A stretch of DNA of 63,998 bases, the filler included, from Stramenopiles sp. TOSAG23-2 (Eukaryota): assembly GCA_900128395.1 (NCBI GenBank). It is 8 parts of 8 records of this genome, joined end to end, with 100 filler letters (N's around TTAATTAATTAA, not from the genome) between each part and the next. Parts side by side here need not be neighbours in the genome. Positions count along the whole stretch, not along the records: positions 56,186 to 63,998 come from LT650272.1; 7 more parts are not named here. One strand, written 5' to 3'. The position numbers and the translations under genes were made by a program. Every line of letters starts with the position of its first letter. The stretch's first letter is position 1. The notes below the pieces were generated by a model. That model made no database searches, was not told the origin of the DNA, and saw nothing but the letters and a program-made list of their open reading frames with translations. Shown piece by piece: positions 24,993 through 63,484 of this stretch.

Positions 24993-25726
24993 GAGGGGAA
25001 GAGAGAGGGAGGAAATAGAGAAAGTATATATTATGTTTGCGTGGAAAGAGTATTATAATTCTATGTTTTTTATAATATTTTCTAAATGCAACACAAATGG
25101 GTTTCTTTTCTGCTGGCTGATCTTTAATAGACAGAAATATTAGTACCAATACAATATACTAAGGGCCAAGAACGACTCGCTGTTCGCTGTGTTATAGATA
25201 GGTAAAAATTGATTTATCAAAGTATGAAATTTATTACTTAAGATGATCTCTTCCAGTTACATAGGAAAAATATAAGTACTAATAGGTATCAAACTTACGT
25301 ATTATAAATATGTAAAAAAAAGTCTGTAGCATCACATCATCACATCAGTACTGTGGGAGTACTTCCATGATTGTTTGAATGTGATTGGATTATTATCTTA
25401 TTTGCATTATTAGTCGTTATTAATATTAGGCAAATATTAAATCAATGATGAATAGTGTTATTTTATTGAATTTATTGACGTCGTCGCGAATGAAATTTTT
25501 AATGAAAAAAATGAATAAAATTTTTTATTTTAATTAAAATTTATAATTTCTTAGTTCATACGTGAAGGATATACATCGCCTTTATATCAGATTGGTAGAT
25601 ATACAACACGTGTTTGTATGATTATTATTGCTATTATCTGTAATTGAATATAGATAGATAGATAAGTGATAAGCACTTGGTGTTTTGTGTGTGTGTGTGT
25701 GTAGGTATATTAATAGTAGTAGTACA

Positions 25727-40088: not shown

Positions 40089-40188
40089 NNNNNNNNNNNN
40101 NNNNNNNNNNNNNNNNNNNNNNNNNNNNNNNNTTAATTAATTAANNNNNNNNNNNNNNNNNNNNNNNNNNNNNNNNNNNNNNNNNNNN
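40089..40188. other. Artificial contig spacer
   Basis: N44-TTAATTAATTAA-N44. Confidence 0.97.
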
Positions 40189-40351
40189 TTTTTCCCCTTC
40201 TTTTTCCTTTTCTTCTTTTTCTTCCTTAATTTGACTGTACACATAATACCAAACTCACCGGTGGGTCATATGTCATATGACAAATAATTTAACCATCCTT
40301 AATTTAAAATGTAAAAAAAATACACGACTTCATACTTCATAAATATGAATA

Positions 40352-43300: not shown

Positions 43301-43906
43301 TTGACTGCTATCAACAAAGAATACACAATTATAATCCTCATTAATTTTAGAATACCATTTCCGTTTCCCTTGATTCCTAAAGTAATAATATGCCTCAATA
43401 ATGCCAAGACCTGAACAATGGTTACATTCAATAACACGCACGTTTTGTCGTTGGTAAAGATATGATTCTGTTTCGAAAGATTTTGTATGCGCAAATACAA
43501 AATCAATATGCTCATAATCTTTCATAATTAATTTTTTAAACCAAGTAGATTTCACAGCATTGTCATTGAATGCCTTTACAATAAAAAGAATTTTACCGTG
43601 CTTATTAGCTTTTGTAAGCACGCGTTGTGGCAAAAATGGAGACATCGACAATTCCATATAGACATCTTCAATTTTGTTCCGAAGGAAGAAATTATCAAGA
43701 TGCTTATTGTAAAGGTAAATGTTTATAGATAGTAGACATAAAGACAATGAAAAAAGAACCACAATGCCGTAAAATACAACTGAAGTTGACGGTAGATTCT
43801 TTTTCTTTCTTAGTTGTTTTATGCACCGTTCATTACAATATCTAGGGCATTTTACATATTTGACAGCGTTGGAGGGTATTATCGATATAAACATGTTGAT
43901 TCTCAT
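40352..43906 (-). CDS. Multi-domain glycosyltransferase-like type II membrane protein with a ricin-B lectin domain (mirror copy)
   Basis: The protein is identical to 44377..47931. Confidence 0.55.
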   Translation of the reverse strand: MRINMFISIIPSNAVKYVKCPRYCNERCIKQLRKKKNLPSTSVVFYGIVVLFSLSLCLLSINIYLYNKHLDNFFLRNKIEDVYMELSMSPFLPQRVLTKANKHGKILFIVKAFNDNAVKSTWFKKLIMKDYEHIDFVFAHTKSFETESYLYQRQNVRVIECNHCSGLGIIEAYYYFRNQGKRKWYSKINEDYNCVFFVDSSQYISLENGGSVDDMAYVLPKYNVDIVVPCLRDGILGDPLSCIEDKPSLNNIGESICQLETMHAKAFTPAFYGIDTNLLWEIGQYALINKIKSKDLSANFIASIALHTAKKVAIFQKVNILNQSFDYMEENRIYKNRNVNLPVRCSMCASYSSKVYSYASCEIAKSKLKLYHKIPKLQSHKYEVNENARLMKMAEVFICKECVKRLLTTVRTIWGKDISVISCKQNDNAFSNIHFSSVLHACEEKRYTNFSGLVVYHYLTQCGIRDTGTNEVSPFGVVITQCTDKLFNFESFTKHIYLPNVFHIHWNRMLEVEWKTFKQNDVSSQSNDILYLLDTSKGKFNLQATIRLVAQSHPNRKIIHRKVNASTYVESFILLCQQFKTIIIEEDENKTFGELLHFVQLALKLRSITIYIGPPVVSLVFRSRNLFVINKFSGIDVSGQMKDALSGDQTVFREKSILNNEIKNRYFSYSHFGYFSSLIRQNAIVNMLNRKDIQKQNLLRNIWSNNDNLCFFHDVAHDGIGVSNCNPDWEDQLWKLLSIGDSLDAQLQNVLTKQCLGARKNIYNNDILYISSCDRFSHTMFSIEVVASFMFLKFGKEKCMSGNKDGLYLEPCNLPNTKQKWEIIETVNLNNVYNFGDENKTNGIVCYGKDCKRLELMLKTKYTNTFGISNVLMLVHLPFDILYELHIYNIQKEPNGNVRVILYLRKKLNEFIVRRGNASVVSFFNMDHFICNENLKKNIDYHLFLLKVASSQVQYISLGGINRCKNIVNFPFHFFQITTNYEKKSLAKQEEVVNSDPILIIALTHKSDDLSHLLNSVDKYILLERNMMNNFIFKMVMRESDSGRIIKQSLNLEELPAFLIGIYINETANNLVEISTVNFFVQNRIPFIFVSRSMRLNDLIDTSYTWNHPCIDENYDHYQSFELRRKYAVKELSRIFSLTNQNILNIIQCCKKKMDDFTYPSLQEYRKKNLISILRGSGFRVTKN

Positions 43907-44376
43907 AAAGCTTTGAATGGTTGGATGGCAATAAATGCTTTAGCAGATGCTAATTTAGATACTTTGTTGCTGTTAGTGGTTATGTTTGACGTTGTTGATC
44001 TTAGATTATATATTGTTGCTATTATTAGATTTATTATTATTGTGCCTATATTGTCAATGCTATTTGCCTTACATCCTATTGATGTACCTGCTATTTTCAC
44101 CTTACAACGATATTCAATGGTGTGTTCAAATTTGGTGCATATATGCACCAAATTTGAACACACCATTGAATATCGTTGTAAGGTGAAAATAGCAGGTACA
44201 TCAATAGGATGTAAGGCAAATAGCATTGACAATATAGGCACAATAATAATAAATCTAATAATAGCAACAATATATAATCTAAGATCAACAACGTCAAACA
44301 TAACCACTAACAGCAACAAAGTATCTAAATTAGCATCTGCTAAAGCATTTATTGCCATCCAACCATTCAAAGCTTT

Positions 44377-47300
44377 ATGAGAATCAACATGTTTATATCG
44401 ATAATACCCTCCAACGCTGTCAAATATGTAAAATGCCCTAGATATTGTAATGAACGGTGCATAAAACAACTAAGAAAGAAAAAGAATCTACCGTCAACTT
44501 CAGTTGTATTTTACGGCATTGTGGTTCTTTTTTCATTGTCTTTATGTCTACTATCTATAAACATTTACCTTTACAATAAGCATCTTGATAATTTCTTCCT
44601 TCGGAACAAAATTGAAGATGTCTATATGGAATTGTCGATGTCTCCATTTTTGCCACAACGCGTGCTTACAAAAGCTAATAAGCACGGTAAAATTCTTTTT
44701 ATTGTAAAGGCATTCAATGACAATGCTGTGAAATCTACTTGGTTTAAAAAATTAATTATGAAAGATTATGAGCATATTGATTTTGTATTTGCGCATACAA
44801 AATCTTTCGAAACAGAATCATATCTTTACCAACGACAAAACGTGCGTGTTATTGAATGTAACCATTGTTCAGGTCTTGGCATTATTGAGGCATATTATTA
44901 CTTTAGGAATCAAGGGAAACGGAAATGGTATTCTAAAATTAATGAGGATTATAATTGTGTATTCTTTGTTGATAGCAGTCAATATATTTCATTAGAAAAC
45001 GGTGGATCAGTGGACGATATGGCATATGTTTTGCCAAAATACAATGTCGATATTGTTGTGCCATGTTTAAGAGATGGCATTTTGGGTGACCCGTTGAGTT
45101 GCATCGAAGATAAACCTTCCCTCAACAATATTGGAGAAAGTATTTGTCAACTAGAAACCATGCATGCGAAGGCATTTACACCAGCTTTTTATGGAATTGA
45201 TACAAATCTTTTATGGGAAATCGGACAATATGCCTTGATAAACAAAATTAAGAGTAAAGACCTTTCCGCAAATTTTATTGCAAGCATTGCCTTGCATACC
45301 GCTAAAAAGGTTGCGATTTTTCAAAAAGTAAATATTCTTAACCAATCTTTTGACTACATGGAAGAGAATAGGATCTATAAGAATAGAAATGTTAATTTGC
45401 CTGTGAGGTGTTCAATGTGTGCCAGCTATAGCAGCAAAGTTTATTCATATGCTAGTTGCGAAATAGCAAAATCAAAATTGAAATTGTATCATAAAATTCC
45501 CAAGCTACAAAGCCATAAATACGAAGTAAATGAAAATGCAAGATTGATGAAAATGGCCGAGGTATTTATTTGCAAAGAGTGTGTCAAGAGGCTGTTAACA
45601 ACCGTAAGGACAATTTGGGGGAAAGATATTTCTGTCATATCCTGCAAACAAAACGATAATGCATTCAGTAATATTCACTTCTCAAGCGTATTACATGCCT
45701 GTGAAGAAAAAAGATATACAAACTTTTCCGGGCTTGTTGTATACCACTATTTAACACAGTGTGGGATAAGAGACACCGGTACAAATGAAGTTTCTCCATT
45801 TGGAGTTGTAATTACACAATGTACTGATAAATTGTTTAATTTTGAAAGCTTCACAAAACATATATACTTACCTAATGTGTTTCATATTCATTGGAATAGA
45901 ATGCTAGAGGTAGAATGGAAAACATTTAAGCAAAACGATGTTTCATCTCAATCTAACGATATTCTGTATCTATTAGATACATCGAAGGGTAAATTTAATC
46001 TTCAAGCAACAATTAGGCTGGTTGCACAATCTCATCCTAATCGCAAAATTATACATAGAAAAGTAAATGCGAGTACCTATGTCGAGTCGTTCATTTTGTT
46101 ATGTCAACAATTTAAGACAATCATTATAGAAGAAGATGAAAATAAAACATTCGGGGAGTTACTGCATTTCGTGCAATTGGCATTAAAGCTTCGATCCATT
46201 ACCATTTATATTGGTCCACCGGTTGTATCCCTTGTATTTCGTAGTAGGAATCTATTTGTTATTAATAAATTTTCAGGAATAGATGTTTCAGGGCAAATGA
46301 AAGATGCATTATCGGGCGATCAAACCGTTTTCCGTGAAAAGAGCATTTTAAACAACGAAATAAAAAATAGATACTTTTCCTATAGTCATTTTGGTTATTT
46401 TTCCAGCTTAATCCGTCAAAACGCTATTGTAAATATGTTGAATAGAAAGGACATTCAGAAGCAAAACCTATTGCGCAACATTTGGTCAAACAATGATAAT
46501 TTGTGTTTTTTTCATGATGTTGCCCATGATGGTATTGGTGTATCTAATTGTAATCCAGACTGGGAAGATCAATTATGGAAACTTTTAAGTATTGGGGATT
46601 CGTTAGATGCGCAATTGCAAAATGTACTTACAAAACAATGCTTAGGTGCGCGCAAGAACATTTATAACAACGATATTTTGTACATATCCTCATGCGATCG
46701 TTTTAGTCATACGATGTTTTCAATCGAAGTTGTTGCCTCTTTCATGTTTCTGAAATTTGGAAAAGAAAAATGCATGTCTGGTAATAAAGATGGGCTATAT
46801 CTGGAACCTTGTAACTTACCCAACACTAAGCAAAAGTGGGAGATAATTGAGACTGTAAATTTAAACAATGTTTATAACTTTGGAGATGAAAATAAAACGA
46901 ATGGTATAGTATGCTACGGTAAAGATTGTAAACGATTGGAATTAATGTTAAAAACAAAGTACACAAATACATTTGGTATAAGTAATGTTTTGATGTTGGT
47001 CCATTTACCGTTTGATATATTGTATGAATTACATATATATAACATACAAAAAGAGCCAAATGGCAACGTTCGTGTAATTCTATATTTAAGAAAAAAATTA
47101 AACGAATTTATTGTAAGGAGAGGGAACGCATCCGTCGTTTCATTTTTTAATATGGATCATTTTATATGCAATGAAAATCTGAAAAAGAATATTGATTATC
47201 ATCTGTTTTTATTGAAAGTTGCAAGTTCACAAGTACAATATATTAGTCTTGGAGGAATAAATAGGTGCAAAAATATTGTTAATTTTCCCTTTCATTTTTT

Positions 47301-47931
47301 TCAAATAACGACCAATTATGAAAAAAAAAGTTTAGCTAAACAGGAAGAAGTAGTAAATTCAGACCCAATACTTATCATTGCACTAACCCATAAGTCAGAT
47401 GATTTGTCGCATTTATTAAATAGTGTAGATAAATATATACTATTGGAAAGAAATATGATGAATAACTTTATTTTTAAAATGGTCATGCGAGAAAGTGATT
47501 CTGGCAGAATTATTAAGCAAAGTCTTAATCTTGAAGAACTTCCAGCATTTTTGATTGGTATTTATATAAATGAAACAGCGAATAATTTAGTTGAAATATC
47601 TACAGTAAACTTTTTCGTACAAAATAGGATTCCTTTTATTTTCGTCTCGAGATCCATGCGTTTAAATGATTTAATTGACACATCGTACACTTGGAACCAC
47701 CCTTGCATTGATGAAAATTACGATCATTATCAATCATTTGAATTAAGAAGAAAATATGCGGTGAAAGAACTTTCAAGAATCTTTTCTTTGACAAACCAAA
47801 ATATTTTAAATATTATTCAATGCTGTAAAAAGAAAATGGATGATTTTACTTATCCTTCATTACAAGAATATAGGAAGAAGAATTTAATATCTATACTTAG
47901 AGGTTCTGGATTTCGTGTTACAAAAAACTGA
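44377..47931 (+). CDS. Multi-domain glycosyltransferase-like type II membrane protein with a ricin-B lectin domain
   Basis: N-terminal TM segment; a DUF707/GT-A-like segment (YNCVFFVDSS...KYNVDIVVPCL); a degenerate GT10-like segment (QFKTIIIEE...ITIYIGPP); beta-trefoil repeats (CNPDWEDQLW, QCL, CNLPNTKQKW). Confidence 0.55.
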   Translation: MRINMFISIIPSNAVKYVKCPRYCNERCIKQLRKKKNLPSTSVVFYGIVVLFSLSLCLLSINIYLYNKHLDNFFLRNKIEDVYMELSMSPFLPQRVLTKANKHGKILFIVKAFNDNAVKSTWFKKLIMKDYEHIDFVFAHTKSFETESYLYQRQNVRVIECNHCSGLGIIEAYYYFRNQGKRKWYSKINEDYNCVFFVDSSQYISLENGGSVDDMAYVLPKYNVDIVVPCLRDGILGDPLSCIEDKPSLNNIGESICQLETMHAKAFTPAFYGIDTNLLWEIGQYALINKIKSKDLSANFIASIALHTAKKVAIFQKVNILNQSFDYMEENRIYKNRNVNLPVRCSMCASYSSKVYSYASCEIAKSKLKLYHKIPKLQSHKYEVNENARLMKMAEVFICKECVKRLLTTVRTIWGKDISVISCKQNDNAFSNIHFSSVLHACEEKRYTNFSGLVVYHYLTQCGIRDTGTNEVSPFGVVITQCTDKLFNFESFTKHIYLPNVFHIHWNRMLEVEWKTFKQNDVSSQSNDILYLLDTSKGKFNLQATIRLVAQSHPNRKIIHRKVNASTYVESFILLCQQFKTIIIEEDENKTFGELLHFVQLALKLRSITIYIGPPVVSLVFRSRNLFVINKFSGIDVSGQMKDALSGDQTVFREKSILNNEIKNRYFSYSHFGYFSSLIRQNAIVNMLNRKDIQKQNLLRNIWSNNDNLCFFHDVAHDGIGVSNCNPDWEDQLWKLLSIGDSLDAQLQNVLTKQCLGARKNIYNNDILYISSCDRFSHTMFSIEVVASFMFLKFGKEKCMSGNKDGLYLEPCNLPNTKQKWEIIETVNLNNVYNFGDENKTNGIVCYGKDCKRLELMLKTKYTNTFGISNVLMLVHLPFDILYELHIYNIQKEPNGNVRVILYLRKKLNEFIVRRGNASVVSFFNMDHFICNENLKKNIDYHLFLLKVASSQVQYISLGGINRCKNIVNFPFHFFQITTNYEKKSLAKQEEVVNSDPILIIALTHKSDDLSHLLNSVDKYILLERNMMNNFIFKMVMRESDSGRIIKQSLNLEELPAFLIGIYINETANNLVEISTVNFFVQNRIPFIFVSRSMRLNDLIDTSYTWNHPCIDENYDHYQSFELRRKYAVKELSRIFSLTNQNILNIIQCCKKKMDDFTYPSLQEYRKKNLISILRGSGFRVTKN

Positions 47932-48094
47932 TATTCATATTTATGAAGTATGAAGTCGTGTATTTTTTTTACATTTTAAATTAAGGATGGTTAAATTATT
48001 TGTCATATGACATATGACCCACCGGTGAGTTTGGTATTATGTGTACAGTCAAATTAAGGAAGAAAAAGAAGAAAAGGAAAAAGAAGGGGATATG

Positions 48095-48194
48095 NNNNNN
48101 NNNNNNNNNNNNNNNNNNNNNNNNNNNNNNNNNNNNNNTTAATTAATTAANNNNNNNNNNNNNNNNNNNNNNNNNNNNNNNNNNNNNNNNNNNN
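48095..48194. other. Artificial contig spacer
   Basis: N44-TTAATTAATTAA-N44. Confidence 0.97.
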
Positions 48195-52460: not shown

Positions 52461-55400
52461 TTACGATGTGATGATGTATGTGTATCTTTCCACATTGTTT
52501 TTAATGATTCTACTACCATCACCATCATTAAGTTCTATTAATGAATTTTTACGATGTGATGATGTATGTGTATCTTTCCACATTGTTTTTAATGATTTAT
52601 ATAATTTTCGCCATAAATGAAAATAAATACTTGAACCAATCAAAGAACCAAATATTAATGATAACATAATAAATGAAAATATCCACGACCATGTATTATT
52701 GCTATTATTTTTAATATACAATCGTAAAACTTCGCTGTAAAGTGTTGCAGTGAAGATTAAAACCATATTTGTCAATAGTAACCATTTTTCCATACGATTT
52801 TGAAATTGATATTTAAATGGTTTGATTTTTATATGCAAATAGAATGCAATAAAACAAATAATAAAAGCACAAATACCTATTATCATTCGATAGCAACTTG
52901 GAAATGTTTTAATATTGACTATTGATATAATTAGTAATATACTAATTTGTCTTGCCCAAATTAAAAATTGATAATATGGTGCATGCGTTGCGTATCGCTA
53001 ATCAATGTTAATTACATGATATATATAATCAACAATTATGTATGTAGAAGTAAAATAAAGTGTTAGTTGTAAACAAAAAACTTGTTGCATATGTTAAACA
53101 TAAACATAATTATATGATGACTTACCTTTGTTAAATAAATAAGACGTCTTTGCAATCGCATGGGTGGCATTTTCAAAGGTTGCAAGCAACTGTATAATTT
53201 ACCATCCCATTCACCTCCCATAACACGCATTTCACGATAAAATTTAAAAAATATATACGAAAAAACTGGAATAATAATGCATAAAAAAAGTAATTTTGAT
53301 ATTATTCCTTCCAACAAACGATTGTAATAATAAAGCAAAACCTTTGTAAATTTAATCGCTAAAAAAGACATTGTCATAGATAAAATATTATATACTTTAT
53401 CAACATATACATGTTTTTTTTCATCATTGAAGCAACATTTTGGCATACATTTAATTACGTTTGGAACAAAAAACAATATACAAAATGTAGCAAATATAAT
53501 AGTCCATATTACAACTGTAAAATTACCAGCATCTGGATTATTTGCACCACCAAATAAACATTGTAAATGAATCATATCTGGCAAATTTAATGTAAATGCA
53601 TTGAGGCTACGTTGTGCTTTTTGTACCTCTACTGGCCATGATAAATCCATATGACCAATAACTAGCATTGTCTGCCCATGTGAACTTATAATACTAATTG
53701 ATGCAATTGTACCACCAATTGCACCAGGATATTTTTCCGTATATTGTACCAATTTACGCAATGCAAAAAACATTATTGCTCCCATTACAATTAGTAATAT
53801 GATTATCATCCATATTGATTGTACCACCAATTGCACCAGGATATTTTTCCGTATATTGTACCAATTTACGCAGTGCAAAAAACATTATTGCTCCCATTAC
53901 AATTAGTAATATGATTATCATCCATATTGGAGTATCCGTGCAAGGTACACATGTTTGTAAATCTACGGATGGAAGTGAATTTTTAAACCCGGAACAATCC
54001 CCTGGGGGTATTCCTTCACAAGGTATTACCTTGCATAATTCTATTATTGGTTTTGGTGGCGGATAGTTAAAACTATTATATTGAATATTGAAATTATTGA
54101 TGTATTGTTGATAATCTGCAATTTTGATGGGTATGTCTCCAATAAGTATGTTTTTCGTTTTTAAAGCGTTTAATTGTAACTCTGTTGTTTTATTATTGTG
54201 CATATATACAATAATTTTGTGACCTTCATCTTTAGTTGTTGTGTATTTGCCATATATGTTACCATTACCTTGCATAATTCTATTATTGGTTTTGGTGGCG
54301 GATAGTTAAAACTATTATATTGAATATTGAAATTATTGATGTATTGTTGATAATCTGCAATTTTGATTGGTATGTCTCCAATAAGTATGTTTTTCGTTTT
54401 TAAAGCGTTTAATTGTAACTCTGTTGTTTTATTATTGTGCATATATACAATTATTTTGTTACCTTCATCTTTAGTTGTTGTGTATTTGCCATATATGTTA
54501 CCAGTTCGGAAGTCATTATGTGTTTCTCGTGTTTCAGTATTAAATGTTATTGTTGTTGCGCAAAGATTGGGAGATCCTGTACCAGTAAATAAACAATCTG
54601 TATAATCCACGTCGCATGTTTCTGGAAAATTAATAGGACAGGATTTGCATGATGTTTCCGATGTTTGGCCTTGTAAATCATTGAATTTGCCAACACCACA
54701 TTTTTTGCAAGCTATTTCGTTTGATTGCCCTTGTAAATTATTAAATTTACCAATGCCACAGTTATTGCAATTTGATTGGTCAACATTCGTATATTTACCA
54801 ACGCCACATGTCTTGCAAGCTTTTTCGTTTGATTGGCCTTGTAAATCATTGAATTTGCCAACACCACAGCTTGTGCAATTTGATTGGCCTTGTAATTTAT
54901 TAAATTTACCAACACCACATTTTTTGCAAGCTGTTTGGTATGTTTGACTTTTCAAAGGATTTAATTTCCCAATACCACATACTACGCAATCAAAGTTATT
55001 AGTTATTGAACATGCACATGCAACTCCAACATTATAATTATTATTGTTTGTTTCATGACATGTGCCAGTAAATGTTTTTTCCGTACATAAATTATTTGAA
55101 CATGTTTTCCATGTTGGTGTACCATAATCATAAATATTATTATTATTATTTGGATTGTTGAAATATGTATTTATTAATGATATGGTAAGTGATCCATATG
55201 TATATATTTCATCACCATTATTAGTTGCATCATTATTGATAAATGATGATTGACGGAGGGTGATGACTGTAGTGCTATCACCATTTATATAGAGGCCGCC
55301 TCCATTATAAGCATCATTATGTGATATGATTGTATTCTTCATTGTTACATCACTGTATTCTATATACATACCACCACCACCATCACCAGCTTGATTATTG

Positions 55401-56056
55401 TCTATCGTTGTATTGTATATGGTAGCAACAGCGCTATACATATAAATACCACCACCACCACCAATACCAGTAGCTTCATTATTATGAATAATACTATTAT
55501 ATATATGAATCGCATTCTTATTCGTACTACCATAAGCACCATATGCATATATTCCACCACCATTCAACCCCGCTTTATTATTAAATACAATAGATGAATA
55601 TAAATTTAATTCACCGCCGTATGTATAAATCAATATAGATCCACCATCACGATCAGGATCATCATTATAACTACTAACATCCCCACCAACTAATTTTATA
55701 TAACGTAATATTAATTTAGCATTTGCATTATTTAAATAAAAATGACGATGTTTACTCGCAGCAGTTATAATAATTAAATTATTCATATCCGTATTTATAC
55801 CATCAATTTCTAACGTATTCAATACAGAAACGTGATCACTACCTGATATGGTACAATCATTATTACGTTTAAACGTACCTTCATTTGTTGTAGCAGAACA
55901 ATCCCATTCCGTTTGTGAATTTATTGGTATTATTAAATTAAAAAGGAAACCAACAACGACAAATAATGCTACCAAAATCTTCTTTTTTGTAAATAATTTA
56001 TAAGATGATTGTTTTTTTATAATTGAAAATAATAAATTTGTTCTCATAATATTCAT
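52461..56056 (-). CDS. Large surface receptor-like protein: beta-helix (GGGI/FxxN, Pmp-like) repeats, GCC2/GCC3-type Cys repeats and a multi-TM C-terminus; fragmented by duplications
   Basis: Four ORF pieces are joined by removing tandem duplications (54025..54502, 53706..53929) and one intron (53125..52998; GTAAGT/ACTAAC/TAG). CGVGKFN repeats, and IKPFKYQFQNRME in the TM region. Confidence 0.7.
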
Positions 56057-56590: not shown

Positions 56591-57010
56591 ATGCCAAATC
56601 AAGATACAACAACACTAGTTCCATCAAAAACATCAGTGCCAAGTCAAGATACCACCACATCAGTGCCAAGTAAAGATATGTCAGCAGCATCGATGCCAAA
56701 AGGAGAAGCATCGTCAGGAGAAGCATCGTCAGGAGAAGCATCGTCAAATGTAATGGGAGTTTTGCCCTTATTGGCAGGGTTCCTTGTTGGCATAGCTTTT
56801 ACTTTAACTGTGAGTTTTTGTTACAAGAAATTCTGTGGTAGTAGAAAGCGCATGGACTGGTGGAAAAAAAAAGGTTACAGAAACACTTGGGAAGATGATT
56901 CTAGGAGAAGAAGGCGCGAAAAAGGAAAAAGGAAAGATACGCTGATAGAAATGCAACAAAAGAATCCAATTTATAATTTAAACCCAGTTGATGCATCGCC
57001 AGGTGTTTAG
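56591..57010 (+). CDS. Single-pass membrane protein with a Ser/Thr-rich repeat stalk (possibly a terminal exon)
   Basis: QDTTT-x-VPS and GEASS repeats, one TM helix, and a basic cytoplasmic tail with NPIY. Confidence 0.45.
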   Translation: MPNQDTTTLVPSKTSVPSQDTTTSVPSKDMSAASMPKGEASSGEASSGEASSNVMGVLPLLAGFLVGIAFTLTVSFCYKKFCGSRKRMDWWKKKGYRNTWEDDSRRRRREKGKRKDTLIEMQQKNPIYNLNPVDASPGV

Positions 57011-57609
57011 AACTGGAAAAGTACAAAATTTGGTCATTTTTATTGATTTTTTAACATTTTCCTATCAAAACTACAAAAAATAGTATACTAATTATGTATC
57101 AATGGTTTAACAACTCCACCAATAATGTAAAATAAGTAATGTAATAATATCATAAGTAAACATGTAAATAATTTAATTTACGCATAATTTATTACATGTA
57201 AATATATATTCGTACTATATTATATTATATATACCATGTTACCCTTCTTATGAAGACTACAAGAGCGCTATTTAGAAAAAATCATCATTACCATCATTTT
57301 GACCATCTTTTCTCTCATCCTTCTTCTTATTTTAAATCCCATTTTTTTACCAAGTTTTTCATCAACTTTATTTAACAAAGTCATTTGATGATTTAGGGAA
57401 ATATACGTAATTTTTTTCTTAATCTTTTTTTTTATTATATAAAATCTAAAATTCTCGAATCTCTACTGGTCTACAAACATATCAATATCATATCATACGT
57501 CGTAATTATACGATCGTATATTTTTATAATATTATTATATAATATTGCACAATTTATATTAATAATTATTCATATATATATAATATACACAACTCTGGGA
57601 ACTCTCACT

Positions 57610-58473
57610 TCAATGCAAACTTCCAGCTGCCCCTTTCCCTTGAAGAAGAACCGAGCTAACGAACCATCCTACTAAATATGCCAATGCGGCAACACCACCA
57701 CCAAGAACAAACATTTCCATCCCTGCATTAAACCAATTTTGATTTGTAAATTTGGATTTTGTTACCCCCAGTCCAAATAAACATATGGAAGTCAATACAC
57801 AGGCTATGATAAACCTTTCATGAACATACAATTCGACTGAGTATAAGATGGCATATGCAAGGAGAGGAATAGTACCAAAAAGGACAAATGATGTGAACGT
57901 AACTGCACCATCAATCCATGGGTTGTCATCCTCATCTGGCACTTGAAGCTCCAACTCTTCTGCCATCATGACATTTATGAAAAAATCATCATACTTTGCC
58001 ATGATTTTTATGATTTGTTCCGCCTCTGCACGTGGTAATCCTTTTGCTTCATAAAGATCCACCATTTCCTCGATTTCTCCTTCTTTGTTATTTTCCAGTT
58101 CCCATTCTTCCCGACGTTTTTCTGCTAATATATATTCATTTTCTGCTTTAGAGGACAATGCATCACCGACGCCCATTGATATAGCATCTGCAATCACGGA
58201 AGAAAATCCTAAAATTAAAATAACATCAACCGATAAACCACCACCAGCGGCGCCGCTCACAACCGCAAATGTTGTGATTATGCCATCTAATCCTCCAAAG
58301 ACTAAAGATTTTATATGTCCCCCAACTTTGGAATGATCTTCATTATGACCAATTTTATTATCATGTGCTGCAATACTTAACTCAACGTCATTTTTTGCAT
58401 ATGCTTCCCTTGCATCTTTTAACGATCGCATTTCAAGCGTGTTATTTGATCCATTTCCAAATTCATGCGTCAT
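57610..58473 (-). CDS. VIT1: VIT1/CCC1 vacuolar Fe2+/Mn2+ transporter
   Basis: VFGGLDGIITTFAVV, ADAISMGVGD, an acidic metal-binding loop (EKRREEWELENNKEGEIEEM...MMAEEL) and SFVLFGTIPLL; five TM segments. Confidence 0.93.
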   Translation of the reverse strand: MTHEFGNGSNNTLEMRSLKDAREAYAKNDVELSIAAHDNKIGHNEDHSKVGGHIKSLVFGGLDGIITTFAVVSGAAGGGLSVDVILILGFSSVIADAISMGVGDALSSKAENEYILAEKRREEWELENNKEGEIEEMVDLYEAKGLPRAEAEQIIKIMAKYDDFFINVMMAEELELQVPDEDDNPWIDGAVTFTSFVLFGTIPLLAYAILYSVELYVHERFIIACVLTSICLFGLGVTKSKFTNQNWFNAGMEMFVLGGGVAALAYLVGWFVSSVLLQGKGAAGSLH

Positions 58474-59317
58474 TATGTATGCTATTATTTAAAATATTAT
58501 TTTGATTAACTTCGTCTGGATATTATTAAATAATAAAAAGTTTTTGTTTTGTTTTGTATGACGTGAATTTGTTTTATATTTTCTTCTTTGTTTACCCACT
58601 ACTGTATTGTTCCTACTACGATATTTAAAATGAAACACGTGTGGCATATCTATACACACACTCACGCACACACACGTTCATCAAACACATGTAAAAATAT
58701 AAATATATTTCAATAGTCTAATAATAAAATAATATTTTAGCCAGAAAAAATGTAGAAATATCACAGTTCTATTTGCATGCTACAGTAAATAGCCGCCAGC
58801 TGGCCAGCCTTAGGGTTAAAAAAATTCATTTATATATTCAGCTTCAGTTATTTGAAATTATTTCGTGCTTTCCTATCAAACGTGCCAACCTTTTAATTCG
58901 AATTTATCAATATTTGGATTCTCAGGAAACCCCGCTATGCTATTCGCATATACATTATGGCAGCGCGATTATAATTTGTATATTTTATTTTTTAAAATCG
59001 TAATTGAAAAATTGGTATACTAATTTGTACTTACATTAATATTTCAATTAAGTCAGAGTTTTATAGGAGTGTGAAAAAAATAATAATGTGGATAGAAGAA
59101 GAAATAAACTACTCGATAGAAGTCAAATTTAATATTATACTCAAACTATACTGTGCTGTATGTCATTGTTTTAGTATTGACATGTTGAATGTGTTGATAT
59201 AAATAACTAACGGGAATAACAACTGATAATAATTGTGTGTCTCTGTGTGTACCTGTGTGTGTGTGTGTGTGTGTGTGTGCGTGCGCGTTTCGATCTGCGT
59301 ACATATAAATAAGTATA

Positions 59318-62300
59318 ATGAGTAGCAATACAACCACCAATGATGAAAAAGGTATCATCCTGAATGAGGATAATACTAAAGTTAGCACTTCTACTAATGA
59401 TATTACCAACAAAGTATTTGATGAGGAAAAAACTACTATCACAAAAAACGATATAAATATTAAAATTAATGATAATAATAATGACGATGATGATGAGGAA
59501 AAGAAAGTTGAGGGACAATCAAAATCCAATCAAACAACTGAACATAAATTCATACCAAAATGTAATATTTTTGAATTTATACAACAAAATAAAACACGTA
59601 TATCAGTGGCTTTTATGTTTATAATTGGCCTTTCCATCTTGTTGGGGGTAGTTTTTGCTCCAAAACCTACTGTAAGAAAATATTATATTGCTGCGGAAGA
59701 TACACTATGGGATTATGCACCAGACAATCAAGATACATGTGCTGGTAGTACATTTGAATACCCAGCAACAAAATATACATCCAAACATTTCGGTAATTTA
59801 AATTATACTAAAAATTTTAATAACCGTATTGGGTTGAAATATATAAAAGCAAAATTTGTGGAATACACAGATGAGACCTTTACCACCCGAAAAAAACGTA
59901 GTGAAGAGTGGAAACATCTCGGTTTGCTTGGTCCAGTCATTCGTGCAGAAACTGGTGATCAAATACAAGTTGTCTTTCGTAACAATGCACGTTTTCCATT
60001 TTCCATCAGCCCAAATGATGGCCTTCAATTTACGAAATCTGGAGAAGGAAAAAATTACAATGATGGAACTTCATGGATCAAAGATTTAAAGGATAATGGA
60101 TTAAAACCATTTTCTTTACGGCAATCAACATGTCTTGGGTTTTCGACTTCACGTGGTGTACGTCCATGCCAACTGTATAAAGTATTGAATGGGGAGCAAT
60201 ATACCTATGTATGGAATGTAAATGAAGGGGCATTGCGAGGCACGAATGCATCTTCAGCTGCTTTTATGTATACATCAAGCCGTGACATGGAACATGATTT
60301 GAATGCTGGTTTAATGGGACCAATCATCATTACAAAGAAAGGATTTGCTGCAAACCCAAGTTCAAAGAATTTAAATCCCAATGATGTAGACAGAGAATTT
60401 GTAATGGTTTTCCATGCTGTGGATGAAAATCACTCACCATATTTAAGTGCAAATATATATGCAAATATAATAAAACCAACGATGGCTAAAAATGCTAAAC
60501 CAGGTTACATTTCATTTAGTTACTTAGATAAACCACGTGTACTACAAGCATTAGTAAATTATGCAACATCTGGGACATCGAAAATTTCATATACAAAAGC
60601 AACAGAACTTGTTGATGAATCAATTCAATCCCATAAGCCAGTTTATATTGTGGAGGGAAGGCCGATTCATATACGGTTTGATCAAGATTCCTTTAATCCA
60701 TTGCAATACGACGAGGCAAATGGTGGCCATGGCTCCGCAAAACGTGTTGTGCAAAAATTGATTGAAACTCTCATCGACAAGGAATCATCAAGTTTTCATG
60801 AATCAAATGTAATGCATGGTGTGAACGGGTATATATACTGTAACCAAAAAGGTTTAAAAATGTATGAAGGGGAAAAAGTTAGGTGGTATACTATTGTTGT
60901 AGGAAGTGCAATGGATATACATACACCACATTGGCATGGGAATACTGTGTTAGTTGAAGGGAAAAGATATGACGAGTTGGATTTGATTCCTGGTTTATCT
61001 CTCAGTGCTGATATGCATGCGACGAATAAAGGCAAATGGTTGTTTCATTGCCACGTTAATGATCATCTTCAAGCCGGTATGACTTCTCTTTATGAAGTTT
61101 CAAATCGTACTGCGATTACCAGTACCAGCAGCAGTGGTATAGAGAGAGAATATTTCATTGCTGCGGAAGAAGTTGATTGGGATTACCTCCCAGGTGGCAA
61201 AGATGAATGTGGTAGTTACATCAGTAGTAATAATGCAACTACAAATTGGGTGTTGGACAAATATTTTAACAATGTGAACTACGCTTCAATAGGTGGAAGA
61301 AAGGTTAAGAAAGTACGATATATTGAATATACAGATAACACTTTTTCTACGAAAAAAATTCAACCTGAACATTTTGGTATTTTGGGCCCTGTGATACGTG
61401 CAGTGGTAGGAGACAATATCAAAGTACACTTTAAAAACCGTGCCCGTTTCCCATTTTCGATTCATCCACACGGTGTATTTTATGGAAAAGATTCAGAAGG
61501 GGCAAATTACAACGATGGAACAACTTTTGTTGCAGATGGTGCGGTTGCACCAAATAAAACCTATACGTACATATGGACAGTCCCAGAAGACGCTGGTCCT
61601 GGTCCGAAAGATTTAAGCAGCAAGTTATGGATGTATCATAGCCACGTATCTGAAACGAATGATACTAATTCTGGGTTGATTGGGCCTATTGTTATTACGC
61701 GCAAAAATATGGCAACGTCACGACTTCGTCTATGGCCAAAAGATATTGACCAAGATGTTTTCCTTTTATTTAATGTTTTTGATGAGAAAAAAAGTAAATA
61801 TTTAAATATAAACGTGGATGAAAATGTAATGTATATCGATGGTACTGTTGAAGGAGCTGGAGGAACACAAAAAATTTCAAAAGCAAGTATGACCACAACA
61901 GCATGGCAATCTGCAATGAAAAATTTAAAACATGATCCCACGTTTCACAGGTACAGTATGAAACATACAATAAATGGTAGAGCTCTATGTACATTAAAGG
62001 GGCTTGATGGTTTTAAAAAAGGGGAGAAAATTCGTTGGAATATTTTTTCAATTGGTGACGAAATTGATCTTCATGTACCAACATGGAAAGGTCACAAAGT
62101 GGTTGACACATCATCTCAGATACGCAGCAATGCCTTACTTATTCCCAGTTCCATGAAAAGTGTTGATACTGTTATGAAACCAGGTAATTGGCCTTTGGTT
62201 GATTTCCCTGAAAATCATAATTTACTTGGTGCACGTGCATTGTTTAAAGTAAGTGGTACAGAGGAGATAGAGATGGTAACAAAGGAAGAGGCGAAAACCG

Positions 62301-63484
62301 TACGTTATTTCATAGCTGCAGATGAAGTAGAATGGGATTACGCGCCAGAAAAAAGAAATAATTGTAAAAAAGAAAGCGAGAGTGCATTTTCCGGAGAAGA
62401 AACAGTAGCAACAGAACAAGGTTATCAACGAATAGGCACGAAATATATTAAATCAATATATCGTGAGTATAAAAGTGAAAAATTTCAATTTTTACGTTGG
62501 GGAGCAAACTCTCGGTTTAACCCTGCATCAGCCCATCTTGGTTTGCTTGGCCCAGTTGTAAAAGCTGCTGTTGGGGAAACTATTGAAATTGTCTTTCGAA
62601 ATAATTTAAAAGCAGCTGTATCATTGGTTCCATTGAGTGGGCCACTTGTCCCGTTGAAAGAAGTAGAGGCTTTAAATGATAAACAACGTCAATTTGTTGC
62701 AGCAGGCGAACGAAGACGTTTGCATGGTGCGCACGGTGGCCCAGACAATTTTATGCATGAGGAACAAACGATTTATGATGGGGATCGTAAACCATTTGAA
62801 GTTTGCCCTGGTGGAGAAATTAAAATGACCATACCTGTTACAACAGATGCTGGGCCGTTACCAGATGAGGATAAGGATAGTGGTGATGGCGGTAGTAGTA
62901 GTAGTAATGAGCAGAGTACTGCAATTTATTTGTATGGATCCGATGTTGATTCAGTTCGTGATTTAAACTCTGGTCTTATTGGAACTATTTTGATATACAA
63001 TGAAAAACATGCTGGACGCAAAGACCAATTGCCAAAAGGAATTCATAGGGAAATGATTACTTTATTTACCACATTTGATGAAAACCTAAGTCGATATATT
63101 AAAATGAATGCATTAAAATATGCAAAAGAGGGCGAGACTATAAATTTTCTAGACCCAGATTTTAAAGAATCAAATCGTATGCGTAGTATTAATGGGTTTA
63201 TGTATTGCAATACGCCGTCTCCGGAAATAAAACAACATAAACGAGTAAGGTGGTACCAGATTGTTTTAGGTTCAAGCGATGCAGTTCATGTACCCACAAT
63301 ATCAGGATTAACTAGTGGCGCTGGTAGTGAAATGACTATAATAGGACCTGGTATGACCCATATAAAAGATTTTACAGCTGATAATTATGGAAAGTGGTTG
63401 TTGCACGATGCAGTGGTTGATCAAACAAGTCAAGGAATGTCAATGTTGGTGGATATTACGGAAGTGCTGCATTCAGGGGCGTGA
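59318..63484 (+). CDS. Six-domain ceruloplasmin/hephaestin/FOX1-like multicopper oxidase (putative ferroxidase), N-terminally anchored
   Basis: Three repeats of YYIAAE..WDY.P / HLGLLGPVIRA..GD, plus MCO ligand motifs HTPHWH, HCHVNDHLQAGM, HPH and HSH. One TM helix near residues 95-115. Confidence 0.9.
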   Translation: MSSNTTTNDEKGIILNEDNTKVSTSTNDITNKVFDEEKTTITKNDINIKINDNNNDDDDEEKKVEGQSKSNQTTEHKFIPKCNIFEFIQQNKTRISVAFMFIIGLSILLGVVFAPKPTVRKYYIAAEDTLWDYAPDNQDTCAGSTFEYPATKYTSKHFGNLNYTKNFNNRIGLKYIKAKFVEYTDETFTTRKKRSEEWKHLGLLGPVIRAETGDQIQVVFRNNARFPFSISPNDGLQFTKSGEGKNYNDGTSWIKDLKDNGLKPFSLRQSTCLGFSTSRGVRPCQLYKVLNGEQYTYVWNVNEGALRGTNASSAAFMYTSSRDMEHDLNAGLMGPIIITKKGFAANPSSKNLNPNDVDREFVMVFHAVDENHSPYLSANIYANIIKPTMAKNAKPGYISFSYLDKPRVLQALVNYATSGTSKISYTKATELVDESIQSHKPVYIVEGRPIHIRFDQDSFNPLQYDEANGGHGSAKRVVQKLIETLIDKESSSFHESNVMHGVNGYIYCNQKGLKMYEGEKVRWYTIVVGSAMDIHTPHWHGNTVLVEGKRYDELDLIPGLSLSADMHATNKGKWLFHCHVNDHLQAGMTSLYEVSNRTAITSTSSSGIEREYFIAAEEVDWDYLPGGKDECGSYISSNNATTNWVLDKYFNNVNYASIGGRKVKKVRYIEYTDNTFSTKKIQPEHFGILGPVIRAVVGDNIKVHFKNRARFPFSIHPHGVFYGKDSEGANYNDGTTFVADGAVAPNKTYTYIWTVPEDAGPGPKDLSSKLWMYHSHVSETNDTNSGLIGPIVITRKNMATSRLRLWPKDIDQDVFLLFNVFDEKKSKYLNINVDENVMYIDGTVEGAGGTQKISKASMTTTAWQSAMKNLKHDPTFHRYSMKHTINGRALCTLKGLDGFKKGEKIRWNIFSIGDEIDLHVPTWKGHKVVDTSSQIRSNALLIPSSMKSVDTVMKPGNWPLVDFPENHNLLGARALFKVSGTEEIEMVTKEEAKTVRYFIAADEVEWDYAPEKRNNCKKESESAFSGEETVATEQGYQRIGTKYIKSIYREYKSEKFQFLRWGANSRFNPASAHLGLLGPVVKAAVGETIEIVFRNNLKAAVSLVPLSGPLVPLKEVEALNDKQRQFVAAGERRRLHGAHGGPDNFMHEEQTIYDGDRKPFEVCPGGEIKMTIPVTTDAGPLPDEDKDSGDGGSSSSNEQSTAIYLYGSDVDSVRDLNSGLIGTILIYNEKHAGRKDQLPKGIHREMITLFTTFDENLSRYIKMNALKYAKEGETINFLDPDFKESNRMRSINGFMYCNTPSPEIKQHKRVRWYQIVLGSSDAVHVPTISGLTSGAGSEMTIIGPGMTHIKDFTADNYGKWLLHDAVVDQTSQGMSMLVDITEVLHSGA

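What the first reader, a model, noticed from the sequence alone, without database searches (positions are those of the whole stretch)
57610..63484. Head-to-head VIT1 iron transporter and membrane-anchored six-domain multicopper oxidase: candidate iron-handling module
Seen: both genes lie on the same contig, diverge from an 844-bp intergenic region (58474..59317), and both are intact. Known: ferroxidases usually partner with FTR1-type permeases (yeast Fet3/Ftr1 and Fet5/Fth1, algal FOX1/FTR1) or ferroportin (hephaestin), whereas VIT1/CCC1 pumps Fe2+ into vacuoles. Inference: a co-regulated pair in which VIT1 imports Fe2+ into a vacuole or phagolysosome and a lumen-facing type II oxidase converts it to Fe3+ for storage or detoxification. 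I do not know of this pairing being described in protists.
Basis: partly seen in the sequence, partly recalled or inferred. Interest (0 to 1): 0.75.

Follow-up and report, generated by a model that had tools for sequence, protein, structure and literature searches.

The report
Iron transporter beside FOX1-like ferroxidase
An uncultured marine protist carries a vacuolar-type iron transporter gene head-to-head with a membrane-anchored, green-alga-like iron-oxidising copper enzyme; both genes look real and functional, but nothing yet shows that they work as a pair.

Summary
There is an intact VIT1/CCC1 gene (57610-58473, minus) and an intact 1388-aa six-domain multicopper oxidase (59318-63484, plus), diverging from an 844-bp spacer.

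The oxidase is not ceruloplasmin-type. Its only complete copper set lies in domain 2 (type-1 copper plus HCH) and domain 3 (two HxH). That is the layout already published for algal Fox1 and bacterial MnxG-type enzymes. In a tree it groups with FOX1-type proteins.

It belongs to an unnamed marine subclade with three features: one N-terminal membrane helix, a roughly 100-aa inserted domain with no structural match, and a single ceruloplasmin-like Fe(II) site at domain 2. The fourth ligand of that site comes from copper-less domain 4. A ferroxidase function is therefore well supported.

Functional coupling to VIT1 is not supported. None of 80 metagenome loci with VIT1 relatives holds the oxidase, but the two closest loci lack upstream DNA. 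The spacer length is ordinary for this window, and the window holds no other iron gene. Both genes occur in RNA libraries of two studies. The pairing remains an untested hypothesis.

The parts
57610..58473 (-). VIT1/CCC1-family Fe2+ (Mn2+) transporter gene, 287 aa, single exon
   Evidence: Pfam PF01988 at E 5.4e-65, full profile. EgVIT1 6iu3_A at E 5.7e-23. Five hydrophobic segments. D63-G64 and M100 align with EgVIT1 D43-G44 and M80 (alignment; residue roles from PMC7714665 passages). The Glu-rich loop E118/E122/E125/E133/E136 is invariant in 26 sequences. RNA-library contigs X15 57616-58210 and 58301-58649, and X17 57581-57991.
58474..59317 (.). 844-bp divergent spacer between the two start codons
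   Evidence: No Rfam match above threshold (best is mir-297, 24.8 bits against a gathering score of 90) and no tRNA. An RNA contig reaches 58649, that is 176 nt upstream of the VIT1 ATG.
58654..58680 (.). Imperfect (CA)n tract, 181-207 nt upstream of the VIT1 ATG; it reads as (TG)n on the VIT1 sense strand
   Evidence: Inverted-repeat pairs I2 and I5 (85-91% complementary to the GT tract).
59234..59290 (.). (TG)n microsatellite, 28-84 nt upstream of the oxidase ATG
   Evidence: family D1. Only one other GT-rich tract exists in the 64-kb window (25678-25701). Public contigs break here.
59318..63484 (+). FOX1-related six-domain multicopper oxidase gene, 1388 aa, single exon
59318..59599 (+). Low-complexity acidic N-terminal tail (aa 1-94), presumed cytosolic
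   Evidence: 13 K+R against 19 D+E. It differs by indels in the 99%-identical P0001 and is not conserved in relatives.
59600..59656 (+). Single transmembrane helix (aa 95-113), signal anchor
   Evidence: An N-terminal helix lies 6-15 aa before the first cupredoxin unit in 10 of 10 full-length relatives.
59675..61144 (+). Unit 1 (aa 120-609). Domain 1 has no copper ligands. Domain 2 carries H535, H538, H540, H577, C578, H579, H583, M588 and the Fe(II)-site residues E495, H500, D582.
60464..60775 (+). Inserted alpha/beta domain of about 104 aa (aa 383-486) between domains 1 and 2, specific to this subclade
   Evidence: Unit 1 is 441-553 aa in the clade, against 327-370 aa in FOX1-type and ceruloplasmin-type proteins. 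AlphaFold model of aa 378-492: pLDDT 88.3, pTM 0.81. No Foldseek PDB match at E 0.001 or better (best 0.7). Best VIA Z is 4.0. No Pfam hit.
61145..62299 (+). Unit 2 (aa 610-994). Domain 3 carries H716, H718, H774, H776, the other half of the trinuclear cluster. Domain 4 has no Cys (D962) but keeps E915.
62300..63484 (+). Unit 3 (aa 995-1388 plus stop). Domains 5 and 6 have lost the copper ligands (D1364 in place of the type-1 Cys). There is no C-terminal membrane segment.

Best explanation
These are two intact iron-handling genes of an uncultured marine protist; VIT1's nearest named relatives are heterotrophic stramenopiles.

Gene 1 is a VIT1/CCC1 antiporter that moves Fe2+ (possibly Mn2+) out of the cytosol into an acidic endomembrane compartment.

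Gene 2 is a FOX1-related ferroxidase held in the membrane by one N-terminal helix, with all six cupredoxin domains on the non-cytosolic side. Fe2+ binds at one ceruloplasmin-type site (E495, H500, D582, plus E915 from domain 4) next to the only type-1 copper (C578, domain 2). The electron passes through the H577-C578-H579 triad to a trinuclear cluster between domains 2 and 3, where O2 is reduced.

Most likely the oxidase works as FOX1 does, oxidising Fe2+ at the cell surface or in the food-vacuole lumen for a permease encoded elsewhere. VIT1 would separately store or detoxify cytosolic iron.

Their head-to-head position is an ordinary gene junction. It may or may not give common iron-dependent control, and it is not evidence of a dedicated two-protein machine.

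Shown: the gene identities, the ligand layout, the anchor and the presence of both genes in RNA libraries. Inferred: orientation in the membrane, substrate, cellular location and independence of the two genes.
For: Copper layout:
- The complete ligand set is found only in domains 2 and 3, in the window protein and all 10 relatives tabulated and in P0249.
- Ceruloplasmin, hephaestin and P0052 have it in domains 1 and 6.
- PMC3600357 (passages read) describes the domain 2/3 location for Chlamydomonas and Dunaliella Fox1 and for bacterial six-domain oxidases.

Relationship to FOX1-type proteins:
- In the tree of 33 rows, the window clade (11 rows) joins the FOX1-type rows at SH-aLRT 99, apart from 13 ceruloplasmin-type rows.
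- The FOX1-type rows (9) include Volvox 'multicopper ferroxidase' P0250, Ostreobium P0252 and Codosiga P0257, named.
- Volvox P0250 has the same kind of N-terminal anchor.

Fe(II) site:
- The residues equivalent to ceruloplasmin E935, H940 and D1025 are kept at domain 2 in 12 of 12 clade members.
- The bridging Glu (the E272/E971 equivalent) is kept in domain 4 in 11 of 12. The same Glu is lost in domains 2 and 6 of the window protein. Residue roles are from PMC3738974 passages.

Ordinary junction:
- Six divergent ORF junctions in the window have spacers of 470-886 bp.
- No MCO lies beside VIT1 relatives in 80 loci.
- The genes downstream of the 78%-identical VIT1 in L001 differ from those in the window, so local gene order is fluid.
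Against: - Two iron-homeostasis genes as direct divergent neighbours is unlikely by chance. My rough estimate is well under 1% for a given gene; this is an inference, not computed.
- No FTR1, the expected FOX1 partner, lies in the 64-kb window, and the rest of the genome could not be searched.
- Both genes carry a (TG)n-type tract on their own sense strand upstream of the ATG. Such tracts are rare in the window.
- Both genes occur in the same two RNA libraries.
- The synteny test was blind for close relatives.
Confidence: 0.5

Rival explanations
1. Export-and-trap module, a refinement of the first reader's idea. VIT1 and the oxidase sit in the same vacuolar, acidocalcisome or phagolysosomal membrane and are driven from a shared bidirectional promoter. 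VIT1 delivers Fe2+ to the lumen, and the lumen-facing ferroxidase, held 6 residues from the membrane, oxidises it to Fe3+. Iron is then trapped (for example on polyphosphate), the gradient for VIT1 is kept, and Fenton chemistry is limited. In logic this matches ferroportin plus hephaestin, or the erythrin-VIT1 fusion MbfA.
For: - Direct head-to-head adjacency.
- The predicted topology puts the oxidase domains on the side to which VIT1 pumps (VIT1 topology from PMC7714665 passages).
- A single, well-kept Fe(II) site.
- No FTR1 in the window.
- Mirrored (TG)n tracts upstream of both genes.
- Both genes in the RNA libraries X15 and X17.
- A precedent for VIT1 joined to a ferroxidase: the erythrin domain of some proteobacterial members (PMC7714665 passage).
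- Vacuolar iron in yeast is Fe3+ on polyphosphate although Ccc1 is the importer (same paper).
Against: - There is no evidence of conserved adjacency: 0 of 80 loci, though the close relatives were uninformative.
- The spacer length is ordinary.
- The nearest characterised kin, FOX1, acts in uptake with FTR1. Uptake and storage genes are usually regulated in opposite directions; this is established knowledge for yeast and Chlamydomonas and is recalled here.
- No sorting signal is conserved in the tail: it differs even in the 99%-identical P0001.
Confidence: 0.27
2. The oxidase is not a ferroxidase. It oxidises another substrate (Mn2+, Cu+, or phenolic or amine compounds), so the neighbourhood with VIT1 has no meaning for iron. 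For Mn2+, a manganese meaning would be possible, since CCC1 proteins can also carry Mn2+.
For: - The copper layout (cluster at domains 2/3, type-1 copper only in domain 2) is the one described for bacterial MnxG-type Mn oxidases (PMC3600357 passages).
- Multicopper oxidases are promiscuous (PMC3738974 abstract, listing).
- Yeast Ccc1 contributes to Mn homeostasis (PMC7714665 passage).
Against: - E495, H500, D582 and E915 reproduce the ceruloplasmin Fe(II) site. They are kept in 12 of 12 (E, H, D) and 11 of 12 (bridging E) clade members, while equivalent residues decay in the copper-less domains.
- Sequence similarity is far higher to ceruloplasmin (E 3.9e-187) than a remote MnxG relationship would suggest. 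No MnxG sequence was compared here.
Confidence: 0.12
3. The adjacency is an assembly artefact: the two genes are joined wrongly inside the AT-rich, microsatellite-bearing spacer.
For: - The same contig holds a perfect zero-spacer palindrome (arms 40089-44141 and 44142-48194, 100% complementary). That structure is typical of amplification or assembly fold-back.
- The likely source run is small (21 million letters).
- No listed independent contig bridges 58716-58924 or 59240-59292.
Against: - Two independent metagenome runs have depth in all 30 bins of the stretch. Their contigs carry VIT1 plus 242 bp of spacer (to 58715), then 58925-59239, then 59293 into the oxidase, at 99-100% identity.
- The breaks fall at a 35-nt high-depth word and at the microsatellite, where short-word contigs are expected to break.
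- 14 runs hold half or more of the words of the 5.9-kb stretch.
Confidence: 0.05

Closest known systems
FOX1-type six-domain multicopper ferroxidases of green algae (Chlamydomonas/Dunaliella Fox1; here represented by Volvox africanus 'multicopper ferroxidase' P0250)
   Same: - Six cupredoxin domains.
- Trinuclear-cluster histidines in domains 2 and 3 (PMC3600357 passages).
- An N-terminal membrane anchor.
- Groups with them in the tree (SH-aLRT 99).
   Different: - FOX1-type rows keep type-1 Cys in domains 2, 4 and 6 (7 of 9 rows) and often have Fe-site residues at domains 4 and 6. The window protein has one type-1 site and one Fe site, both at domain 2.
- The window subclade has a roughly 100-aa inserted domain and a longer domain 1 (unit 1 is 490 aa against 327-370).
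- FOX1's known partner is FTR1 (recalled); none is seen here.
Vertebrate ceruloplasmin / hephaestin
   Same: - Best solved-structure match (E 3.9e-187).
- Same fold and the same four-residue Fe(II) site chemistry.
- Hephaestin is also membrane-anchored and works on the far side of an Fe2+ exporter (ferroportin).
   Different: - The trinuclear cluster lies between domains 1 and 6, with three type-1 sites.
- Hephaestin's anchor is C-terminal (P0080).
- The window protein fails the defining domain 1/6 layout.
EgVIT1 (PDB 6iu3) / yeast Ccc1 / Arabidopsis VIT1
   Same: - Full-length Pfam VIT1 match.
- Five membrane segments.
- D43-G44 and M80 equivalents.
- Glu-rich cytosolic metal-binding loop.
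   Different: - EgVIT1 E72 aligns with Ser, and an invariant Asp (D96) sits one turn later at the G76 position (alignment).
- P48 is Thr.
- Transport was not tested.
MbfA-type erythrin-VIT1 fusions of proteobacteria
   Same: A VIT1-family transporter combined with a ferroxidase activity (PMC7714665 passage).
   Different: - There the ferroxidase is a di-iron ferritin-like domain fused on the cytosolic side.
- Here it would be a separate copper enzyme on the far side. The window VIT1 has no such domain.
Fungal Fet3/Ftr1 (fetC/ftrA) ferroxidase-permease gene pairs
   Same: A ferroxidase gene and an iron transporter gene as divergent neighbours. That the fungal pairs share a promoter is recalled; one search gave only a search listing.
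   Different: - The transporter there is an FTR1 permease that imports the Fe3+ made by a three-domain oxidase.
- VIT1 moves Fe2+ the other way, and the oxidase here has six domains.
Bacterial MnxG-type six-domain oxidases
   Same: Cluster at domains 2/3 and type-1 copper only in domain 2, as described in PMC3600357.
   Different: - They are bacterial Mn(II) oxidases that are only remotely similar to eukaryotic proteins, according to that paper.
- No sequence comparison was made here.

Membership tests
VIT1/CCC1 (PF01988) | Profile match over the whole family model, above the curated cut-off | tested here: met
   219.6 bits against a cut-off of 28.1; profile positions 1-213 of 214.
VIT1/CCC1 (PF01988) | Five transmembrane segments, with a Glu-rich cytosolic metal-binding loop between TM2 and TM3 | tested here: met
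   Five hydrophobic segments. E118, E122, E125, E133, E136 and E173 are invariant in 26 sequences. Architecture as described in PMC7714665.
VIT1/CCC1 (PF01988) | Pore residues equivalent to EgVIT1 D43 and M80 | tested here: met
   D63 and M100 in the alignment. M100 is invariant and D63 is nearly invariant (at least 90%).
VIT1/CCC1 (PF01988) | Fe2+/H+ antiport into a vacuole | not testable with these tools
   Needs yeast ccc1 complementation or a liposome assay.
Ceruloplasmin/hephaestin-type six-domain MCO | Trinuclear cluster ligands in domains 1 and 6 | tested here: not met
   Domain 1 has S231/N233 and T319/S321. Domain 6 has H-T-S and H-D-A in place of HxxHxH and HCH.
Ceruloplasmin/hephaestin-type six-domain MCO | Type-1 copper sites in domains 2, 4 and 6 | tested here: not met
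   Cys only at C578 (domain 2); D962 and D1364 sit at the equivalent positions.
FOX1-type six-domain MCO | Trinuclear cluster ligands in domains 2 and 3 | tested here: met
   H538, H540, H577, H579 (domain 2) and H716, H718, H774, H776 (domain 3). Definition from PMC3600357.
FOX1-type six-domain MCO | Groups with named FOX1-type sequences rather than with ceruloplasmin-type ones | tested here: met
   Quick maximum-likelihood tree of 33 rows that I selected; the split has SH-aLRT 99. The tree is unrooted and the careful search did not finish.
FOX1-type six-domain MCO | Additional type-1 sites in domains 4 and 6 | tested here: not met
   Lost in the window protein and in 10 of 11 other clade members. 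P0004 keeps a possible site in domain 6.
FOX1-type six-domain MCO | Works with an FTR1 permease | not testable with these tools
   No genome is held. No FTR1 among the 69 window ORFs scanned.
Multicopper ferroxidase (functional class) | Acidic/His Fe(II)-binding site next to the type-1 copper that feeds the cluster | tested here: met
   E495, H500, D582 and E915 align with ceruloplasmin E935, H940, D1025 and the bridging Glu. This is by sequence alignment only; the geometry was not modelled.
Transporter-ferroxidase module (ferroportin/hephaestin-like or Fet3/Ftr1-like) | Conserved linkage, co-regulation or physical association of the two partners | tested here: inconclusive
   0 of 80 VIT1 loci hold the oxidase, but only distant relatives had upstream DNA. 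Contig data cannot rank expression.
MnxG-type bacterial MCO | Sequence relationship to MnxG | not tested
   Only the layout was compared with the description in PMC3600357.

The most novel reading that the evidence does not exclude
An uncultured marine phagotroph couples a VIT1 exporter to a dedicated, single-site, lumen-facing FOX1-derived ferroxidase in one endomembrane (storage vacuole or food vacuole), driven from a shared promoter. Fe2+ pumped out of the cytosol would be oxidised at once and trapped as Fe3+. This would be a protist counterpart of ferroportin-hephaestin and the first enzyme assigned to the Fe2+-to-Fe3+ step of vacuolar iron storage. The subclade-specific 100-aa domain, which has no match of E 0.001 or better (Foldseek) or Z 5 or more (VIA) among solved structures, could be the docking or polyphosphate/iron-handling element.
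Probability: 0.22. Interest if true: 0.7.

Novelty: new variant of a known kind. Interest (0 to 1): 0.4.

Why it matters
If the pair is a real module, it would name an enzyme for a step that is left without an enzyme in the vacuolar iron-storage scheme. [quoted passage not shown] It would also bear on how abundant marine bacterivores hold and recycle iron.

Even without coupling, the oxidase defines a widespread, unnamed marine subclade of FOX1-type enzymes reduced to one catalytic site. Copper-less domain 4 is kept partly to supply one Fe ligand. That is a clean natural experiment on how six-domain oxidases work.

As it stands, the gene pair is an interesting coincidence or hypothesis, not a demonstrated system.

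Tried and rejected
- **Whole-genome search for FTR1 or VIT1.** No genome is held.
- **Earlier notes of this scan.** Searches by place, by words and by sequence found no look-alike stretch and no note on this pair.
- **Synteny via metagenome contigs.** I used a VIT1 alignment: 591 stretches matched a pattern, 193 were relatives, and 80 loci were kept. A tblastn of the oxidase against all 80 loci (343,841 bases) gave no hit at E 0.001 or better. L001 (78%) and L003 (71%) start inside VIT1, so they say nothing about the upstream side.
- **Search with the insert alone.** Residues 383-486 found only P0001 among 45 candidates. This is a limit of the word index, not evidence of rarity.
- **Protein atlas on the insert.** Best score 0.82, below the level that means anything.
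- **Foldseek PDB and VIA wide search on the insert model.** Best E was 0.7 and best Z was 4.0 (3j1v_A, rmsd 3.0 over 61 residues). That is common-arrangement level only.
- **Rfam and tRNA scans of the spacer.** Nothing above threshold.
- **RNA contigs.**
  - Neither RNA run has listed pieces on 58960-59439, or on the first 1.6 kb of the oxidase apart from a low-complexity word.
  - This lack of cover is not evidence of anything.
  - Depth from contigs cannot rank the two genes, so co-expression could not be tested.
- **Sorting motif in the oxidase tail.** The E10-to-L15 stretch resembles an acidic di-leucine signal but is absent from the 99%-identical P0001, so I dropped it.
- **Literature.** No paper describing a VIT1/CCC1-multicopper oxidase gene pair turned up in four searches. 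These search only the open library held here.
- **Complex prediction.** Not sent, because I do not claim that the proteins bind.

Full report
**Observation.** Under the standard code the window has an ATG-to-stop ORF at 57610..58473 on the minus strand (287 aa) and one at 59318..63484 on the plus strand (1388 aa). They are separated by 844 bp, 58474..59317.
- The small protein matches Pfam VIT1 over the whole model (E 5.4e-65) and the Eucalyptus VIT1 structure 6iu3 (E 5.7e-23).
- The large protein matches Cu-oxidase_3 and Cu-oxidase_2 and ceruloplasmin structures at E 3.9e-187 in four stretches.

**Organism and context.**
- No genome is held.
- The window is 28-40% G+C and encodes ordinary eukaryotic genes: ZNF598, GOST, alpha-galactosidase, cactin, ATG5, calpain and ALDH. 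At least one short intron is present, splitting ATG5.
- VIT1's closest named relatives are heterotrophic stramenopiles: Bicosoecida sp. at 64% and a EukProt entry labelled INCI at 62%. All closer hits are unnamed marine sequences.
- 20 of 24 listed public runs hold at least part of the 5.9-kb stretch, and 14 hold half or more of its words. The organism labels shown are mostly marine or seawater metagenome.

**The transporter.**
- Five hydrophobic segments.
- D63-G64 and M100 align with EgVIT1 D43-G44 and M80. A review names these as the pore-entrance residues (alignment; PMC7714665 passages).
- The glutamate-rich cytosolic loop is invariant in 26 aligned sequences.
- It looks like a working VIT1/CCC1 antiporter. 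By family knowledge that means Fe2+ (and possibly Mn2+) leaving the cytosol.

**The oxidase: copper layout.**
- A global alignment to ceruloplasmin divides it into three two-domain units beginning at residues 120, 610 and 995.
- I aligned all units of 14 proteins and read out the copper-ligand columns.
- Ceruloplasmin (P0081), hephaestin (P0080) and a protist protein (P0052) have the eight cluster histidines in domains 1 and 6, as expected.
- The window protein and all 10 of its full-coverage relatives have them in two places:
  - domain 2: H535, H538/H540, H577-C578-H579, H583, M588;
  - domain 3: H716/H718, H774/H776.
- Domains 1, 4, 5 and 6 have lost the ligands, and no Cys remains at the type-1 position of domains 4 and 6.
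- This layout is not new. PMC3600357 (passages read) reports the cluster between domains 2 and 3 for Chlamydomonas and Dunaliella Fox1 and for bacterial MnxG-type proteins, the latter with type-1 copper only in domain 2.

**The oxidase: relatives.**
- A search of 1.84 billion representatives gave 3998 hits at E 0.001 or better.
- Among hits of 900 aa or more, nine proteins of about 1000-1160 aa have their HCH motif at the domain-2 position.
- Three of the nine carry names: Volvox africanus 'multicopper ferroxidase', Ostreobium and Codosiga.
- In a quick maximum-likelihood tree of 33 rows that I selected, three groups each form one side of a branch (SH-aLRT 98-100): ceruloplasmin-type (13 rows), FOX1-type (9) and the window clade (11).
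- The window clade joins the FOX1-type rows at SH-aLRT 99. The tree is unrooted and the careful search did not finish.

**What is particular to the subclade.**
1. *N-terminal anchor.* There is a single N-terminal helix (aa 95-113) ending 6 residues before domain 1, and 10 of 10 full-length relatives have the same. Volvox P0250 also has an N-terminal anchor.
2. *Longer unit 1.* Unit 1 is 441-553 aa, against 327-370 aa elsewhere.
   - Part of the excess is a domain of about 104 aa between domains 1 and 2 (aa 383-486).
   - It folds confidently as a small alpha/beta domain (pLDDT 88.3, pTM 0.81, 13-row alignment).
   - It has no Pfam hit, no Foldseek PDB match at E 0.001 or better and no VIA match above Z 4.0.
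3. *One type-1 site.* Only one type-1 site remains, whereas most FOX1-type rows keep Cys in domains 2, 4 and 6. P0004 may keep a second site in domain 6.

**Is it a ferroxidase?**
- Ceruloplasmin's Fe(II) sites consist of E935, H940 and D1025 of domain 6 plus E272 from domain 2. The domain-4 site consists of E597, H602 and D684 plus E971 from domain 6 (PMC3738974 passages).
- By the pseudo-threefold rule, a site at domain 2 should take its fourth ligand from domain 4.
- The window protein has E495, H500 and D582 in domain 2 and E915 in domain 4.
- The E/H/D triad is kept in 12 of 12 clade members and the domain-4 Glu in 11 of 12.
- The equivalent Glu is lost in domains 2 (A531) and 6 (S1320) of the window protein, where it would serve sites that no longer exist.
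- This pattern supports Fe2+ as substrate. It rests on alignment; I could not measure distances in a model.

**Is the pair a module?**
- *Spacer length.* The spacer is ordinary: six divergent ORF junctions in the window have spacers of 470-886 bp.
- *Other iron genes.* The window holds no other iron gene among the 69 ORFs scanned.
- *Relatives.*
  - A metagenome scan with a VIT1 alignment returned 80 loci, and none encodes an oxidase relative.
  - 19 of the 80 have at least 2 kb upstream of VIT1. All 19 are relatives at 51% identity or less.
  - The two closest loci (78% and 71%) are cut inside VIT1.
  - The genes downstream of the 78% relative differ from those in the window, so gene order changes quickly in this group.
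- *Spacer repeats.* The spacer carries an imperfect (CA)n tract at 58654-58680 and a (TG)n tract at 59234-59290.
  - Each gene therefore has a TG-type tract on its own sense strand upstream of its ATG.
  - Only one other such tract exists in the window.
  - This is a weak hint at most.
- *RNA.* RNA-library contigs of two studies lie on VIT1 and on the 3' 2.5 kb of the oxidase at 99-100% identity. One extends 176 nt upstream of the VIT1 ATG. Contig depth cannot rank genes, so co-expression is untested.
- *Literature.* Four literature searches found no described VIT1-MCO pair. A VIT1 domain fused to a ferritin-like ferroxidase domain (MbfA type) is known in proteobacteria (PMC7714665 passage).

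**Assembly caution.**
- The same contig contains a perfect palindrome with no spacer: 40089-44141 and 44142-48194, 100% complementary. It encodes two identical 1184-aa ORFs. This is the signature of an amplification or assembly fold-back.
- Independent metagenome contigs tile the spacer in three pieces. They break only at a 35-nt high-depth word (58921-58955) and at the microsatellite. I rate a false join as unlikely (0.05).

**Verdict.**
- Both genes are real and probably functional.
- The oxidase is a new variant of the known FOX1 type and is very probably a ferroxidase.
- The proposed VIT1-to-oxidase module is mechanistically sensible, because the oxidase domains face the side to which VIT1 pumps, as with ferroportin and hephaestin. 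But it rests on adjacency alone. I give it about one chance in four.
- The default reading is two separate parts of the iron economy that happen to be neighbours (0.5).

Noticed in passing
window 40089-48194: A perfect inverted repeat with zero spacer (arms 40089-44141 and 44142-48194, 4053 nt each, 100% complementary). It gives two identical head-to-head 1184-aa ORFs with a weak ricin-B match. It is probably an amplification or assembly fold-back rather than biology, and it warns about contig joins in this assembly.
   Followed up: partly
window 58921-58955: A word of about 35 nt inside the spacer is matched by very abundant, otherwise unlike contigs in both metagenomes (depth about 1400-3300, against 6-16 for the flanks). 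There is no Rfam or tRNA match. Its origin is unknown, and it is where public contigs break.
   Followed up: partly
window 60464-60775 (oxidase aa 383-486): A confidently folded alpha/beta insert of about 104 aa between cupredoxin domains 1 and 2. It is conserved in the subclade and has no Pfam family and no convincing match among solved structures.
   Followed up: yes
P0250 (Volvox), P0260, P0265, P0266; In several FOX1-type proteins the Fe-site triad E/H/D is missing at domain 2, the domain wired to the cluster, but is present at domains 4 and/or 6. In the window clade it is the reverse. This suggests different electron-entry routes within the FOX1 type.
   Followed up: no
P0241: A 2656-aa representative matched the query in 14 stretches (bit score 1235.6). 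It may be an oxidase of about twelve domains or a tandem gene-model fusion.
   Followed up: no
window 21477-21701 and 21752-22774: ATG5 is split. The first part of its UblA domain lies in a separate frame about 50 bp upstream, so this genome has short introns although most ORFs in the window are uninterrupted.
   Followed up: no
L001 1038-3350 and 4152-5474: The 78%-identical VIT1 relative has different downstream neighbours (a 770-aa protein and a 440-aa membrane protein) from the window, where an Ephrin-receptor-like repeat protein lies at 54170-56056.
   Followed up: partly
window 56591-57010: A small ORF (139 aa) just downstream of VIT1 encodes a Ser/Thr/Pro-rich segment, one hydrophobic helix and a basic tail. 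It resembles a mucin-like type I membrane protein and has no Pfam family.
   Followed up: no
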